A stretch of DNA of 64,000 bases, from the NCBI RefSeq assembly GCF_006345805.1, contig NC_043011.1:18240464-18304463 (forward strand), in the 5' to 3' direction. The position numbers and the translations under genes were made by a program. This DNA comes from Octopus sinensis (Eukaryota). The notes beneath the pieces were generated by a model that was not told the origin of the DNA, made no database searches, and was given only the letters and a program-made list of their open reading frames with translations. Below are positions 14,443 through 53,745 of this stretch, in pieces (the stretch's first letter is position 1; each line of letters starts with the position of its first letter).

Positions 14443-14660
14443 TATATATATATATATATATGTAAATATGCATAGGCGTAGGAGTGGCTGTGTGGTAAGT
14501 AGCTTGTTTTACAACCACATGGTTCCGGGTTCAGTCCCACTGCGTGGCACGTTGGGCAGGTGTCTTCTACTATAGCCTCGGGCCGACCAAAGCCTTGTGA
14601 GTGGATTTGGTAGAGGGAAACTGAAAGAAGCCCGTCGTAAATATGTGTATATATATATAC

Positions 14661-14901
14661 TCTTTTACTCTTTTACTTGTTTCAGTCATTTGACTGCGGC
14701 CATGCTGGAGCACCACCTTTAATCGAGCAACGCGACACCGGGACTTATTCTTTTGTAAGCCCAGTACTTATTCTATCGGTCCCTTTTGCCGAACCGCTAA
14801 GTAACGGGGACATAAACACACCAGCATCGGTTGTCAAGCAATGCTAGGGGCACAAACACAGACACACAAACACGCATATATATATATATTATATATATAT
14901 A

Positions 14902-14940
<39 letters not shown>

Positions 14941-14996
14941 TACGACGGGCTTCTTTCAGTTTCCGTCTACCAAATCCGCTCACAAGGCTTTGGTCG
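14661..14996 (-). mobile_element. SINE family A, 5'-truncated copy nested in the opposite orientation
   Basis: Reverse complement of the family A tail, internal (TA)n and 3' half of the head (CGACGGGCTTCTTTCAGTTTCCGTCTACCAAATCC). Confidence 0.88.
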
Positions 14997-15120
14997 AAAG
15001 AAAATAGTAAAAAGTGAAAAAACTTCACAAGGCTTGTTTTAAAAGGTTAAAACATATATATTTGAGTCATTATGTCAGAAGAATGTTAGAAATTTTTTTC
15101 ATACAATGACATAGTTTTTG

Positions 15121-15160
15121 AAGAAATGACCGGTTTCGCGTTCAGCTTTTCAAATTTCTT
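15121..15160 (-). ncRNA. Minimal type I hammerhead ribozyme, U3-A8 variant
   Basis: Minus strand reads AAGAAAU-UUGAAAA-GC-UGAAC-GC-GAAA-CCGG-UC^AUUUCUU: 7-bp stem I, 2-bp stem II, palindromic ACCGGU stem III. Predicted cleavage after the C at 15128. Confidence 0.8.
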
Positions 15161-15170
15161 ACATCGATGT

Positions 15171-15208
15171 AAAATTTGAAAAGCTGAACGCGAAACCGGT
15201 CATTTCTT
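15171..15208 (+). ncRNA. Minimal type I hammerhead ribozyme, U3-A8 variant (shortened stem I)
   Basis: AAAAU-UUGAAAA-GC-UGAAC-GC-GAAA-CCGG-UC^AUUUCUU; predicted cleavage after C15201; stem I only 4 bp. Confidence 0.72.
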
Positions 15209-15868
15209 CAAAAACTAAGTCAATGTATGAAAACATTTTCTTTACATTCTTCTGACATAATGACTCAAATATATATTTTTTAACCTTTTAAAACAAGCCT
15301 TCTGTAGTTTTTTCACTTTTTACTATTTTCTATATATTCAACCACGTGCTTTCACACACCAACTTTCTCACCTATATATATATAAATATATATGTATGTG
15401 TATGTGTGTGTTTGTGTGTATGTGTTTGTCCCCCCAACATAACTTAACAACCGATGCTGGTGTATTTACGTCACCGTAACGTAGCGGTTCGGCAAAAAAC
15501 ACCGATAGAATAAGAAGAATAAGTCCTGGGATCGATGTGCTCGACTAAAAGCGGTGCTCTAGCATGGCCAGAGTCAAATGAGTGAAATAAGTAAAACAGT
15601 AAATAAGAGTAAAGAGTATATGTATATGTTTGTGTGTCTGTGTCTGCGTTTGTACGTGTGTATGTGTATGCGTGGGTGTATAAACATATACACACACACA
15701 CATATATATATATATGAGGGGCTTCGGAATGTTTTGAGCCTTCAAGTCTAGTAGCTTCATCAAAAGTCATCTACAATGTTATTTTTTTTATTTTTGAGGC
15801 TCAAGACTTTTCATAAACAACTCGTACATTTATGTACGTTTAGATACATATACATATATGTATATATA

Positions 15869-50100: not shown

Positions 50101-52562
50101 CTCCGTTAGTCGTCTTTCATATTATGCAATATTTCAGTTTGCAGTGTCAAACTGCATTATATTTCGATTATTACTCTTTCAACTTATATCCTTATATTAC
50201 GCCTTGTTTTGAGACGTATGTATTCTTTCATTCTAAATTATTGTTGTAAATAATAAGAATATTCACATAATGGAACTTATCTTGTTTAAACTAAAAGCCA
50301 GCTTATGTATATGGAAATAAAGAAAGAAATGGATACTATTGATTTAAAATGAAAATAAAAATCTATTTCTCATATTTTAGACATAATATGCGAATAATCC
50401 TTTTCCCGAATTTAACTTAAATTGACAACTTAACTGACTAAATTGTATTAGCTTTCCTATTTTATTACTTTTGCTTAAATCATCCACAAGGGAATTCTCT
50501 GTTTTGAAAGTGATTTAAATCATTTTATAGCTTATTGCTCAGCGAATTCCAATACAATTTATATTTACACGCGGTATTTGACATTAGTAATATTATCTTG
50601 CCATTCTATAATCCCCAATAGATATATATTTGAGAAGCATTTGTAAGAATTATTCTTTTACTTTCAAAGATCAAGAAATAATGCACGTCTCTTTGACCAA
50701 TAATTTCTGCATAAAATCAATACGAAAATTAAGAAAAAATCTATATAGAACACAAAGCCTACTTTGCAGTCACAGTGGAAGATACTGCCAAGCAATAAGG
50801 AAACAAATTTTGAATGCTAGCGATATTGAAATACATCGATTCGTGTTAAAAGTGAATACTTCATATATAAATTACTAACCTAATTAAATACACGATTAAT
50901 TTTAAAATGTATCAAAAATGCAACAAATAAGGCGATAGGATGAAATCTGAAAATAAATGCGTAAAACTATTTCATGCCGTTCTTGTATATACTGATAAAA
51001 GTTTCAGACGAGTCATATAAATGTATAACTATATAAATACATGGTTCTTCTGAAAATCAATCGTATGTCTCCTAAAATACTCTATTTTAGAGTGTTTTTT
51101 AAATTCATTTATTCTTTTACTTGTTTCTTTCATCTAACTTCGGTAATGTAGAAGACAAATTCATTGTATCGTCAGAAATGTTAATGACCTGTAATAAATT
51201 AATTGTATAACTGGATTTTCGTGCAAAGTTTAAAATTCTGAATCACAAATATTGTCACCATATTAATTACCCCTTATTTGTCAAGGTCCCATATCACGAA
51301 ATAAAATAATTTTTTTTCTTGTTACGAAAGTTAAAGAAACAATAAATTTTGCAATATCTATAGTTTACCAGTTCATGATCTGTACACCGCCATTGAATAC
51401 GGTGAAACAATTAGAAGACGACTTCCATGATTATATTTCTTCTATTGCAACAGTGGAAAAAATATTGGGAGAAATCCCTGTTGGTTATCATTGCTTTTTA
51501 AAACGCTTTACCATCATTGATAAACATTCCGTTAATTCAGAACATATTGTTGTTAAAATCTTTGCAAGAAAAATTGAGTTTGACAGTAAGTTAATTGTTA
51601 GATATATATTTTTCGTAATGCACATCTACATCTTAGTTATTAGTCTCCTGAATACTGCTCTCGTAAATTCTCTTTACTGAGTTAGATGAAACTCCTAAAT
51701 GTGTACTGGTTTCAAAATTGATGCCTATGATTACGAGCAAATATGATGAAAGTTTGACACAAATCTATGATTTAGGACGATTTGGGACAGCACGCCTATA
51801 AAACTACTTTTAATCTAAAAGTATTTCATCTCTGCATTATTAATTTTCAGTATTCAATACCATGGAAGTCTACACAAATGTGTAGATCATACTTAATCGT
51901 TAGGGGATTACACATTTTTTCATATTTCTCCTCGATAAAGTTTTAAGAGAGTCATGAGAATATAAAAAATCACAAGAGAATACAAGCGTTAGGCTAGGTA
52001 TGAAACATTAACACTCTTCATTCAGAGTAGCTCCTCCTCCAAAAAGTGAAAAGTGAAGCTAGATTCAATGAAATCTGAGTAAATCATATCATTCATCAGA
52101 AATCACCACCCAAGGCGATAACTTAACATCAGACGCACATGAAATAATTGATACTACATTTGCATTTATGAACAATGGTACATATATTGAAGGACGGAGG
52201 ACGGTAGAGATAAACAAGCATAATATAGGTAATAAGACTCACTCTGTGTGTATATATATATATATATATGTTTCTTTTGGGACTTTTCTCTTTTCCAATG
52301 AATAGCTATACACCTAACGACAAACACTCTCTTGGCTCTTTTCTCTCTTTCTTTCTCTCCCTCTCTTTCTCTGTATATACATATATATATACATATATAT
52401 ATATATATATTATATATATATATATATATACATACATATATCAGATAGTAAAAAGTGAAAAACCTACAGAAGGCTTGTTTTAAAAGGTTAAAAAATATAT
52501 GTATTTGAGTCAATATGTCTGAAGAATGTTATAATTTTTTTTCTTACAATGACATAGTTTAA

Positions 52563-52602
52563 AAGAAATGACCGGTTTCGCGTTCAGCTTTTCAAATTTT
52601 TT
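52563..52602 (-). ncRNA. Minimal type I hammerhead ribozyme, U3-A8 variant, downstream of the GIY-YIG ORF
   Basis: Same 33-nt core as the other copies; one mismatch in stem I; predicted cleavage after the C at 52570. Confidence 0.78.
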
Positions 52603-52711
52603 ACGTCGTTATGTTTACGTTGAGAAGAGTTATCGTTATGTTTATGTTGAGAAGAGTTCTAGATAAGGGGAAGTAATAAGTGATTTCTTCCGGTGTAAGG
52701 GAGATAATCGC

Positions 52712-53450
52712 TTAAAATTTTTTTCTTTTCTTTTGGAGTGAATTTCTCTGTAAAATTATGTTGGAATGGTTAAGTTTGGGCTTGTATTTTTCAATGAAGA
52801 ATGTTTCCTTGTTTAGTCTAATTTGTGTTGGTGTTCCGATAGCACATTGGTAAAATGGAAAGATTAAAAATTGTGGTAGTAGTTGCTTTGCGCATTTCTC
52901 AATGTGCTCACTAAAGGGTATCATTCTGTATTCTGGGAATGCAATCTGTTGTCGATGCAGTGTGCATCTACGTCTGAGTAATAGTCCCGTGGACCCCACG
53001 TAGTCTTGGTGGCATCCCGAGCATTTTATGACAAATTATGTTTTCAAAGGCACAAGTAAAATTAGATTTGATCTTGAATTTCTGTCCCTCTTTGAAGAGG
53101 AATTCTGATCCTTCTAGCAGGTTTGGACATGTTGCACAGTTCGGTCTACCACATTTTTTTTACTTTTGCATCCGTAATTTCAGGAAACAATTTTGCCTTT
53201 GTGAGAATCTTTTTAAGTGATTTAGGTTGTTTGTAGCTTTTAATGATTTGGTGTATGTTTAGAATTTCCTTTAGTTTGGTGTCCTTATGAAGTATTGGTA
53301 AATTCTGGGTTATGATGATGAAGGCTTCTTTGTTTCTGGGGTTGTATGTGGATATGTAAGGTAGTATTTTCGGGGAAGGTGTGTTGTTGTGTTGAACTTT
53401 CCTTAAAGTTTCTATGTTGATTTCTGTTGCACGTCTGATCCCATCCTCTA
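52712..53450 (-). pseudogene. PLE linker + GIY-YIG endonuclease domain (frameshifted)
   Basis: ORF 52712-52999 plus upstream frames; YVGST, conserved R, H-H and RxxxE..LN motifs. Confidence 0.9.
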
Positions 53451-53508
53451 TGAACTCTTCTCATCATAAACGTAAGGATAACTCTTCTCAACGTAAACAT
53501 AACGACGT

Positions 53509-53548
53509 AAGAAATTTGAAAAGCTGAACGCGAAACCGGTCATTTCTT
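53509..53548 (+). ncRNA. Minimal type I hammerhead ribozyme, U3-A8 variant
   Basis: AAGAAAU(53509-15) UUGAAAA(16-22) GC-UGAAC-GC GAAA(32-35) CCGG UC^(53541) AUUUCUU(42-48); perfect 7-bp stem I. Confidence 0.82.
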
Positions 53549-53745
53549 CTAAACTATGTCATTGGAAGAAAAAAATTTATAACATTCTTCAGACATATTG
53601 ACTCAAATATATATATTTTTTAACCTTTTAAAACAAGCCTTCTGTAGTTTTTTCACTTTTTACTATTTTCTATATATTCAACCACGTGCTTTCACAAACC
53701 AAATTTCTCATCTATACATATATACATATACATATACATATATGT

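What the first reader, a model, noticed from the sequence alone, without database searches (positions are those of the whole stretch)
14999..15372. ORF-less palindromic element with two back-to-back hammerheads: candidate non-autonomous PLE derivative
Seen: a ~334-bp imperfect palindrome whose axis (ACATCGATGT, 15161-15170) lies immediately 5' of two divergently oriented hammerheads 10 nt apart. Its arms are the same sequence that flanks the GIY-YIG element 37 kb away, but nothing lies between them. It looks like a MITE yet is built from retroelement ends. Inference: either a minimal ribozyme-bearing unit mobilised in trans by the PLE RT/endonuclease, or the extreme product of 5' truncation plus inversion during one insertion. 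A transcript from either strand would contain one sense ribozyme and could alternatively fold into a ~160-bp hairpin that masks it and would be an ADAR or Dicer substrate.
Basis: partly seen in the sequence, partly recalled or inferred. Interest (0 to 1): 0.72.

Follow-up and report, generated by a model that had tools for sequence, protein, structure and literature searches.

The report
Head-to-head stumps of a Penelope retrotransposon
This 374-base mirror-image stretch is two short tail-end stumps of a Penelope-type jumping gene joined head to head, a known shape that these elements likely leave when they insert, so it is ordinary rather than a new kind of mobile element.

Summary
The palindrome is real: arms 15000-15166 and 15165-15330 are 93.5% alike, and a one-sided 42-nt extension runs to 15372. 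Both arms are the 3' UTR of a canonical RT + C-terminal GIY-YIG Penelope-like element (PLE), the same family as the element at 52440-53712.

Its core reads UUGAAAA (U3/A8 instead of C3/G8), helix II has 2 bp, and Rfam does not detect it. This variant class is already published for PLEs. Activity is untested.

It is not a fixed-junction amplifying family. The junction 21-mer occurs once in the 2.7-Gb genome. 25 other mini-palindromes have different junctions. The arms of each locus were born identical. Head-to-head pairs form a continuum of independent arm lengths, from about 10 nt to 1.7 kb. Short stumps are the commonest class even among single copies.

Exactly one arm carries the "tail" in 21 of 21 pairs sampled in genome order.

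Best reading: one insertion into (TA)n, in which both nicked strands likely primed cDNA synthesis and the two cDNA ends were joined. This architecture is described in the PLE literature, and this scan has seen it on other genomes.

The parts
15000..15166 (-). Short-form arm: the last ~167 nt of the PLE 3' UTR, with its sense on the minus strand. Its outer end is the upstream ('short') 3' end ...CTATTTTC and carries no tail.
   Evidence: 93.45% to the other arm. (maps to reference positions 223-390 of the L032 3' UTR, 97.0%). (same sequence as the 3' UTR of the long copy L036).
15165..15330 (+). Long-form arm: the same ~167 nt of the PLE 3' UTR, with its sense on the plus strand.
   Evidence: reference 223-429, 95.2%.
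15331..15372 (+). One-sided 42-nt 'tail' extension (TATATAT + 35 nt), present on this arm only and followed by (TA)n.
   Evidence: Same extension at 53672-53712 and in L032/L033. The literature describes a 30-40 bp tail at one end of PLE insertions (PMC8557442, PMC3846280, passages read).
15161..15170 (.). Junction and axis ACATCGATGT: a spacer-less join in which the two arms share the central CG.
   Evidence: The junction 21-mer AAATTTCTTACRTCGAYGTAA has 1 match in the genome, this locus, with control 0.
15120..15160 (-). Hammerhead-like motif, family-typical copy: AAGAAAU-UUGAAAA-GC[UGAAC]GC-GAAA-CCGG-UC|AUUUCUUC (U3/A8 core variant).
   Evidence: The variant class is described in PMC4209133 (passages read). 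Not detected by Rfam.
15171..15209 (+). Hammerhead-like motif, damaged copy: the helix I 5' strand reads UAAAAU instead of AAGAAAU.
52440..53442 (-). Related insertion in the same window: a ~1-kb 5'-truncated PLE copy (decayed linker/CX4CxxC/GIY-YIG frame plus 3' UTR) with a short-form end in (TA)n.
   Evidence: 90-91% identical to L032/L033 over ~1 kb.
53443..53712 (+). Inverted ~270-nt partner arm of that insertion; this arm carries the tail.
14944..14998 (+). Context, not part of the element: a 55-nt 5' fragment of an abundant SINE between (TA)n and the short-form arm. In the other copies examined this arm abuts (TA)n directly.
   Evidence: Loose ends of other copies continue GCCCGAGGCTATAG... 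(table 7).

Best explanation
The element is two ~167-nt 5'-truncated copies of the 3' end of a canonical RT/GIY-YIG Penelope-like retrotransposon lying head to head, likely laid down in a single insertion into a (TA)n tract when both nicked target strands primed reverse transcription and the two short cDNAs were joined at their 3' ends.

Shown directly:
- The arms are the PLE 3' UTR.
- One arm ends at the upstream 3' end and the other at the downstream end, with the 42-nt tail.
- The junction is spacer-less and unique to this locus.
- Each arm carries a hammerhead-like U3/A8 motif.
- The same architecture recurs at many loci and in several families, with different junctions.

Inferred:
- The insertion was a single event.
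- Priming took place on both strands, as a purified PLE protein does in vitro.
- The two start sites were each used once.
- The cDNA ends were joined through the shared CG.

On this reading the element is a dead by-product with no function of its own.
For: Parentage:
- The arm equals the 3' UTR of copies whose ORF matches ~750-aa proteins (38 hits, best E 2.6e-119, 72% identity).
- Those proteins have RVT_1 in the middle and GIY-YIG at the C-terminus, above Pfam cut-offs in P0006 and P0012.
- L036 and L042 are long copies of the same family, 95.7% and 94.9% identical over ~1130 nt.
- L036 sits in (TA)n on both sides.

Not a fixed family:
- The junction 21-mer has 1 match in 2.72 Gb.
- In 25 distinct mini-palindromes the arm inner ends range from 133 to 202 nt and the junctions differ.

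Arms born together:
- Arms within a locus are 93.0-99.2% identical, against 80-93% between loci.
- Of 119 distinct left/right differences, only 16 recur in 2 or more loci. Most of those lie in A/T runs or at the edge base.

Continuum:
- The motif ACGCGAAACCGGTC occurs 1030 times (control 2).
- The first 100 hits in genome order hold 13 head-to-head pairs, spaced 61-2477 bp, and no tail-to-tail pair.
- Arm lengths in those pairs are unrelated to each other (208/636, 317/1440, 475/200, 1687/1035 and others), with 0-5 nt overlap or a 21-31 nt filler at the join.
- Inverted KACCGGTTTC...GAAACCGGTM pairs: 141 loci at 25-85 nt spacing (control 1) and 117 at 86-146 nt (control 2), from several unrelated families.
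- Of 40 single-motif loci in genome order, 14 end 151-189 nt from the 3' end. 10 of the 26 resolved loci have an inverted partner arm of 46-531 nt.
- 3 of 7 short-form singles have an inverted tail-only piece.

Tail:
- Exactly one arm has it in 11 of 11 and 10 of 10 informative pairs, in all 25 palindromes and at 52440-53712.
- Partner-less singles split 7 with tail, 7 short, 2 unclear.

Literature read:
- An adjacent inverted 5'-truncated copy and a one-sided 30-40 bp tail are typical of PLEs, and some clades prefer (TA)n targets (PMC8557442 passages; PMC3846280 passages).
- A purified PLE protein nicks and extends both strands and starts at two sites separated by the tail (PMC11167929 main text).
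Against: - No empty site or polymorphism was available, so 'one event' is inferred from the arms' similarity and the shared architecture.
- Here the two arms stop at the very same base (167/167). That is a coincidence if cDNA lengths are independent. Junctions in this superfamily do pile up at this point: 14 of 26 listed loci have motif-to-motif lengths of 70-76 nt, and five of those sit in two tandem arrays. An unexplained preferred stop or RNA 5' end therefore exists just 5' of the hammerhead-like motif.
- The left end abuts a SINE fragment instead of (TA)n, unlike the other copies.
- In vitro, no difference in start site between the two strands was reported (PMC11167929). The strict one-tail rule is therefore not explained by the published data.
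- Direct Pfam support on this family's own ORFs is weak: RVT_1 E 2.2e-4 on L036, and GIY-YIG E 0.089 on the window fragment, both below cut-off.
Confidence: 0.8

Rival explanations
1. A non-autonomous, MITE-like palindromic family. The ~375-nt unit would be transcribed, its 3' arm recognised by the PLE RT/endonuclease, and the whole palindrome copied to new sites in trans.
For: - Many loci share the architecture. In one search, 27 of the 40 scored candidates (of 2083 found) were full-length palindromes.
- 141 loci have inverted motif pairs 25-85 nt apart.
- pLTR sequences alone suffice for mobilisation in trans in rotifer PLEs (PMC3846280 passage).
- Junctions cluster near one point.
- Short stumps of 151-189 nt are the commonest class. 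This could reflect a short template RNA.
Against: - The junction is unique and the centres differ from locus to locus. Some hold parent sequence that others lack.
- Left/right differences are private to each locus.
- Every subfamily variant is present in both arms.
- The only same-junction copies found (L051/L052, and the tandem copies on C4 and C3) share flanking sequence or lie in arrays.
- Arm lengths form a continuum with independent halves.
Confidence: 0.07
2. Snap-back self-priming within one insertion. A single short cDNA folds back on itself and the polymerase copies it, making the second arm.
For: - Arkhipova et al. infer self-priming from palindromes at inverted junctions (PMC3846280 passage).
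- Here the arms are exactly equal in length.
- Many wider cases are near-symmetric with a small loop.
- Some centres show several switches.
Against: - This junction has no spacer at all, and an intramolecular hairpin needs a loop.
- In the pairs sampled in genome order the two arms have unrelated lengths.
- The arm reaching further into the centre is the tail-bearing one in 6 loci and the tail-less one in 10, so there is no fixed polarity.
- A copy of the first arm cannot carry a tail that the first arm lacks.
Confidence: 0.1
3. A class II DNA transposon (MITE) with terminal inverted repeats and TA target sites, unrelated to retrotransposition.
For: It has 167-nt inverted termini, no ORF, and flanking TA repeats.
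Against: - The 'TIR' is the 3' UTR of an RT/GIY-YIG retroelement and is found singly at the 3' end of 5'-truncated copies.
- The ends are asymmetric by the PLE tail.
- No fixed internal sequence exists.
Confidence: 0.01
4. An assembly fold-back artefact, or a local inverted duplication unrelated to any mobile element.
For: - Long-read fold-back artefacts exist (PMC12870357, listing only).
- SINE-like flanks at 14664-14889 and 15392-15603 are also inverted.
Against: - The arms differ by 9 substitutions in 134 nt.
- The ends match defined PLE 3' ends.
- The same architecture recurs at over a hundred loci.
- The flank repeat is only 78-84% identical and is absent from 15 of 17 other loci.
Confidence: 0.02

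Closest known systems
Complex insertions of endonuclease-bearing Penelope-like elements: an inverted 5'-truncated copy (inverted pLTR) plus a one-sided 'tail' (Arkhipova et al. 2013, PMC3846280; Craig et al. 2021, PMC8557442)
   Same: - Head-to-head arrangement.
- A tail of about 40 nt at one end only.
- A palindromic junction.
- High 5' truncation.
- A (TA)n target.
[quoted passage not shown]
   Different: - A miniature: both halves are only ~167 nt, so no coding sequence is left.
- Here the one-tail rule is strict in every pair examined, where the papers say 'often' or 'optionally'.
- The left end abuts a SINE fragment.
Minimal PLE hammerheads (min-HHR), including the U3-A8 core covariant (Cervera & de la Pena 2014, PMC4209133)
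   Same: - Sense-strand motif in the terminal repeat.
- Helix III reduced to A-[CCGG]-U with a palindromic loop.
- G10.1-C11.1 closes helix II.
- U3/A8 replaces C3/G8.
- Pairs of motifs on opposite strands.
   Different: - Helix II has only 2 bp, where the paper describes larger helices II.
[quoted passage not shown]
- One subfamily has U3/G8.
- No cleavage data.
- Other PLE families of this same genome keep a canonical CUGAUGA box.
Both-strand cleavage and extension with two internal RT start sites by a purified PLE protein (Frangieh et al. 2024, PMC11167929)
   Same: - Two alternative 3' ends separated by the tail.
- An AT-rich target.
- cDNA on both strands would give exactly this head-to-head product.
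   Different: - That work is in vitro, with a lizard element.
- It reports no difference in start site between the strands. Genomic pairs here always use one of each.
L1 twin priming (5' inversions of LINE-1 insertions; recalled, not read here)
   Same: The second target strand primes on element RNA, giving an inverted 5' part.
   Different: Twin priming inverts a different, upstream segment of the same RNA, so no palindrome results. Here both halves are the same 3' segment.
MITEs, and animal non-LTR retrozymes (bioRxiv 10.64898/2026.07.22.740005, abstract read)
   Same: - Small and non-coding.
- MITE-like inverted ends.
- Retrozymes are PLE-derived and carry hammerheads.
   Different: - MITEs derive from DNA transposons and keep a fixed sequence.
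- Retrozymes are tandem direct repeats thought to pass through circular RNA.
- This element is an inverted pair, with one sense motif per strand and no sign of amplification.

Membership tests
Insertion product of an EN+ Penelope-like element | Sequence derived from an element that encodes RT plus a C-terminal GIY-YIG endonuclease | tested here: met
   - Arms equal the 3' UTR of L032/L033/L036.
- The ORF hits 38 proteins (best E 2.6e-119).
[quoted passage not shown]
- Direct Pfam hits on this family's own frames are sub-threshold.
Insertion product of an EN+ Penelope-like element | Adjacent inverted 5'-truncated copy (inverted pLTR) | tested here: met
   The same arrangement is seen in 13 pairs among the first 100 of 1030 motif hits, and in 10 of 26 resolved single-motif loci.
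Insertion product of an EN+ Penelope-like element | 30-40 bp 'tail' at one end only | tested here: met
   42 nt at 15331-15372 on one arm. One tail per pair in 21 of 21 pairs sampled in genome order.
Insertion product of an EN+ Penelope-like element | Target-site duplication or microsatellite target | tested here: inconclusive
   The right end lies in (TA)n. The left end abuts a 55-nt SINE fragment and then (TA)n. A TSD cannot be read in a microsatellite.
Hammerhead ribozyme (type I, PLE min-HHR) | Catalytic core C3 U4 G5 A6 N7 G8 A9 ... G12 A13 A14, A15.1-U16.1, H17 | tested here: not met
   The box reads U3 U4 G5 A6 A7 A8 A9. All other positions fit. U3-A8 is a published covariant of the C3-G8 pair in PLE motifs (PMC4209133). 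The canonical definition therefore fails, and only the variant definition is met.
Hammerhead ribozyme (type I, PLE min-HHR) | Helices I, II and III supported by pairing and covariation | tested here: inconclusive
   - Helix I has 7 bp (left-arm copy), helix II 2 bp, and helix III A-U/C-G with a palindromic CCGG.
- There is one compensatory change (C-G to U-A in subfamily S3).
- 86.9% of cells are paired, but shuffles do as well (355 of 500).
- The fold is no better than shuffles.
Hammerhead ribozyme (type I, PLE min-HHR) | Match to curated covariance models | tested here: not met
   No hammerhead family matched. The control shows the models miss 3 of 4 canonical-box PLE motifs of this genome, so this is weak evidence.
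Hammerhead ribozyme (type I, PLE min-HHR) | Self-cleavage | not testable with these tools
   Needs in vitro transcription. Published min-HHRs cleave poorly, and only as dimers (PMC4209133).
Amplifying non-autonomous family (MITE-like or SINE-like) | Copies share one internal structure or junction and inherit the master's differences | tested here: not met
   Same-junction copies share flanks or lie in tandem arrays.
Non-LTR retrozyme | Tandem direct repeats, each with a sense hammerhead | tested here: not met
   The arrangement is an inverted pair, not tandem. The definition is taken from the preprint abstract.

The most novel reading that the evidence does not exclude
Head-to-head PLE insertions are made by a coupled, two-primer reaction in which the two adjacent reverse-transcription start sites are each used exactly once. 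For example, both nicked strands could prime on one RNA held by a dimeric RNP, with the second primer forced to the downstream site.

The basis is the one-tail rule: one tail in 21 of 21 pairs sampled in genome order, while single copies split about evenly. Independent choice of start site would give that result with probability about 5e-7.

On this reading, the thousands of stumps in this genome are a natural record of the PLE integration intermediate. The pile-up of junctions just 5' of the hammerhead-like motif would mark the edge of the RNP footprint or a preferred RNA 5' end.
Probability: 0.3. Interest if true: 0.45.

Novelty: new member of a known kind. Interest (0 to 1): 0.25.

Why it matters
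The value is mostly annotation hygiene. These PLE stumps look like MITEs or long hairpin genes: Rfam's miRNA models hit the element at E 1e-14 without any meaning. Structure-based repeat finders could file them as TIR elements, although that is my inference and was not tested.

Two further points could be useful:
- The strict one-tail rule and the independent arm lengths are quantitative constraints on the still unsolved PLE integration mechanism.
- A 167-bp perfect-stem RNA hairpin inside a genome that looks cephalopod would be a natural double-stranded RNA substrate if it is transcribed. This remains untested.

Tried and rejected
1. Rfam as a hammerhead test. It was negative, but the control showed it misses most PLE-type motifs here. 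I dropped my interim verdict of 'no hammerhead' and analysed the motif by hand.

2. A loose core pattern, CTGANGA..GAAA..TH, run on 47 loci. It found no match inside any palindrome or inside L036. One match lies in the 3' region of the sister-family copy L038, on the strand opposite its ORF. The pattern cannot see the U3/A8 variant.

3. The 'constant sum of arm lengths' (322-343 nt). I built several mechanisms on it. Genome-ordered pattern scans then showed it was largely selection by the 374-nt query, so I rejected it as a feature. A milder pile-up of junctions remains.

4. Inverted duplication of the flanks as a general by-product. Only 2 of 17 loci have inverted flanks, and the repeats differ between them.

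5. Covariation support for the motif: none beyond shuffles.

6. RNA evidence. No RNA holder is listed: no listed run is on record as RNA. The contigs laid come from other copies of the family and none spans this locus. Nothing can be said about expression, editing, small RNAs or circles.

7. Earlier notes of this scan by place and by sequence returned nothing.

8. Two paper searches failed on term syntax and were re-worded.

9. Searches for a prior description of cephalopod PLE mini-palindromes found none. The passages on Penelope, MITE and inverted repeats in PMC13282606 hold none either. Supplements were not opened.

Full report
**What is there**

Window 14999-15372 holds an imperfect palindrome.
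- The left arm (14999-15165) matches 15331-15166 at 93.45% over 168 nt, E 1.7e-68 (inverted repeats I2 and I5).
- The axis ACATCGATGT lies at 15161-15170, and the two arms share its central CG.
- The structure is asymmetric. The right arm continues for 42 nt (15331-15372) before (TA)n begins. The left arm stops at ...GAAAATAG.
- As RNA the stretch would fold into one hairpin of -217.9 kcal/mol, z = -32.
- The same arm sequence occurs at 52445-52607 and 53504-53671. There it flanks about 780 bp with a decayed minus-strand frame that carries CGRPNCATC and ...YVGST.... Pfam GIY-YIG on that frame scores only E 0.089.

**Parentage**

The source genome has 2.72 Gb in 13,516 contigs; the window is C15:18240464-18304463. 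In it the arm is found singly at the 3' end of 5'-truncated copies that run on into an ORF (L032 and L033).
- That ORF finds 38 proteins of 516-783 aa (best E 2.6e-119, 72% identity).
- Three of those proteins were re-scanned. They have RVT_1 in the middle and GIY-YIG at the C-terminus, above Pfam cut-offs in P0006 and P0012.
- L036 and L042 are long copies of the same family, 95.7% and 94.9% identical over ~1130 nt.
- L036 has two open frames of 366 and 388 aa separated by one stop, a 3' UTR of ~250 nt, and (TA)n on both sides. Its own RVT_1 hit is sub-threshold, E 2.2e-4.
- A CX4CxxC linker before GIY-YIG is the mark of the Neptune and Nematis clades. It has been proposed to direct (TA)n targeting (PMC8557442, passages).

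The arms are therefore the last ~167 nt of the 3' UTR of a canonical EN+ Penelope-like element.

**The hammerhead question**

At first I judged the hammerheads absent. Rfam gave no hammerhead at gathering score in the window, none at E<=10 around the element, and none at E<=1 in five PLE loci totalling 29.7 kb. A CUGANGA-based pattern was also absent.

A control reversed that verdict. Other families in this genome contain a plain CUGAUGA-helix II-GAAACCGGUA. Of four such loci, Rfam gave one sub-threshold HH9 hit and missed three.

Read by hand against those canonical neighbours, our family has the same layout: AAGAAAU | UUGAAAA | GC[N5]GC | GAAA | CCGG | UC^AUUUCUU.
- Core position 3 is U and position 8 is A. 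One subfamily has U3/G8.
- Subfamily S3 has a compensatory GU..AC in helix II.
The right-hand copy has lost part of helix I.

Cervera and de la Pena describe just this in PLEs (PMC4209133, passages):
- minimal hammerheads with a 1-2 bp helix III and a palindromic loop;
- a 'U3-A8 instead of C3-G8' covariant;
- motif pairs on opposite strands;
- very low activity in vitro.

Support here is architectural only. Covariation is no better than shuffles, and the isolated motif is no more stable than shuffled sequence.

**Family or by-product?**

A search with the whole 374 nt scored 40 of 2083 candidates. 27 were full-length palindromes at 78-93% identity (one is the query itself), and 13 were single tails at ~95%.

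Aligning 17 of them, and mapping 25 distinct loci onto the parent, gave three results:
- The outer ends are constant.
- Both arms of each locus carry the same subfamily variants.
- The centres differ. Arm inner ends range from 133 to 202 nt, and some centres hold parent sequence that others lack.

Further evidence points the same way:
- The window's junction 21-mer, allowing CpG decay at two positions, occurs once in the genome.
- Arms within a locus are 93.0-99.2% identical.
- Of 119 distinct left/right differences, 16 recur in two or more loci, and most of those lie in A/T runs or at the edge base.
- The one clear same-junction pair (L051/L052) shares ~120 nt of flank. Other identical centres lie in tandem arrays.

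Each palindrome was therefore made at its own locus from one kind of template. They were not copied from a master palindrome.

**A sampling trap**

In that first sample the two arm lengths summed to a near-constant 322-343 nt. Scans that do not depend on the palindromic query showed this was mostly selection by query length.
- The arm motif ACGCGAAACCGGTC occurs 1030 times (control 2). The first 100 hits in genome order contain 13 head-to-head pairs spaced 61-2477 bp, and no tail-to-tail pair.
- Inverted KACCGGTTTC...GAAACCGGTM pairs number 141 at 25-85 nt (control 1) and 117 at 86-146 nt (control 2). They come from several unrelated sequence families.
- Mapping the 12 other genome-ordered pairs plus L035 gave unrelated arm lengths: 539/892, 364/509, 475/200, 1687/1035, 317/1440, 208/636, 413/390, 850/585, 242/541 and others. 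The joins overlap by 0-5 nt or hold a 21-31 nt filler.
- Of 40 single-motif loci in genome order, 14 end 151-189 nt from the 3' end, 10 end at 241-431, 2 at 513 and 772, and 14 ran beyond the fetched stretch.
- 10 of the 26 resolved loci have an inverted partner arm of 46-531 nt.
- 3 of 7 short-form 'singles' carry an inverted piece made of the tail alone.

Short stumps are thus the commonest outcome, and a mini-palindrome is simply a pair in which both halves are short. A real but milder pile-up remains. 14 of 26 listed loci of this superfamily have motif-to-motif lengths of 70-76 nt (five of them lie in two tandem arrays). That places a preferred end just 5' of the hammerhead-like motif, and I cannot explain it.

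**The tail**

Exactly one arm carries the ~40-nt tail in each of these samples:
- 11 of 11 informative pairs;
- 10 of 10;
- all 25 palindromes (found with an asymmetric query, so less independent);
- the element at 52440-53712.

Partner-less singles split 7 with tail, 7 short and 2 unclear. Independent choice of end would give 21 of 21 with probability about 5e-7.

**Mechanism**

The literature already describes the architecture:
- an inverted 5'-truncated copy next to the insertion, and a 30-40 bp tail often at one end only (PMC8557442; PMC3846280);
- palindromes at the inverted junction, read there as self-priming (PMC3846280);
- a purified PLE protein that nicks and extends both target strands and starts reverse transcription at two sites separated by the tail (PMC11167929, main text).

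The data here fit two separately primed cDNAs joined at their 3' ends better than an intramolecular snap-back, for three reasons:
- Arm lengths are independent.
- The deeper-reaching arm is the tail-bearing one in 6 loci and the tail-less one in 10.
- This junction has no spacer for a hairpin loop, whereas two identical cDNA ends ...ACATCG can pair through the self-complementary CG.

That both strands primed, that it was one event, and that the start sites are coupled are all inferences.

**Verdict**

The structure is a miniature of a known PLE insertion shape, carrying a published hammerhead variant of unproven activity. It is a dead by-product.

This scan has reached the same reading on other genomes (e1-9524683, e1-7858806, e1-9173677 and others). 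I found no paper on cephalopod PLE mini-palindromes in the searches, nor in the passages read.

Expression, editing and small RNAs remain untested. No listed run is on record as RNA, and the contigs laid come from other copies of the family.

Noticed in passing
G000 genome-wide; examples L057-L074: The 10-mer GAAACCGGTM is shared by at least eight unrelated terminal-repeat families, and all of them form head-to-head mini-palindromes. Some families (L057+, L058+, L059+, L060-) keep a canonical CUGAUGA box and a long helix II. Ours has UUGAAAA.
   Followed up: partly
L057-L060: Rfam 15 hammerhead models miss PLE-type minimal hammerheads of this genome: 3 of 4 canonical-box loci got no hit at E<=10, and 1 got HH9 at 22.9 bits. 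Generic miRNA-precursor models hit the palindromes at E down to 1e-17, purely because they are long hairpins.
   Followed up: yes
window 14664-14889 and 15392-15603: A SINE-like repeat with a (CA)n(TA)n tail lies on both sides of the palindrome in inverted orientation, with the tails facing the element (78-84% identical). The window holds only two other, weaker copies. This could be two independent insertions or an older inverted duplication. 15 of 17 other loci show nothing like it.
   Followed up: partly
window 14944-14998 (and 14470-14659): A 55-nt 5' fragment of a hyper-abundant SINE sits between (TA)n and the short-form arm, cut at the point where other copies continue GCCCGAGGCTATAG. A full copy of the same SINE lies inverted 340 nt upstream (95% over 76 nt). 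It could be a target deletion or a template switch at insertion. This is unresolved.
   Followed up: partly
L010 (G000:C8:17900899-17904258): This palindromic locus has 317-nt inverted flanks at 90% identity. They start 3 nt from one end and 68 nt from the other, and are built from a repeat different from the one in the window.
   Followed up: no
G000:C4:21213166-21214975 and C3:156440841-156441692: Mini-palindromes with identical centres recur every ~870 bp (three copies) and ~777 bp (two copies). PLE stumps have been carried along in local tandem duplications.
   Followed up: no
G000: C2:51598455, C3:154378023, C2:192289954, C4:38110047: Some junctions are complex, with two or more switches between the arms or short duplicated blocks. 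They look like serial template switching.
   Followed up: no
window 52600-52660 and 53443-53503: The part of the 3' UTR upstream of the hammerhead-like motif holds a ~27-nt tandem duplication (TTATGTTTACGTTGAGAAGAGTTATCG-like) in this subfamily.
   Followed up: no
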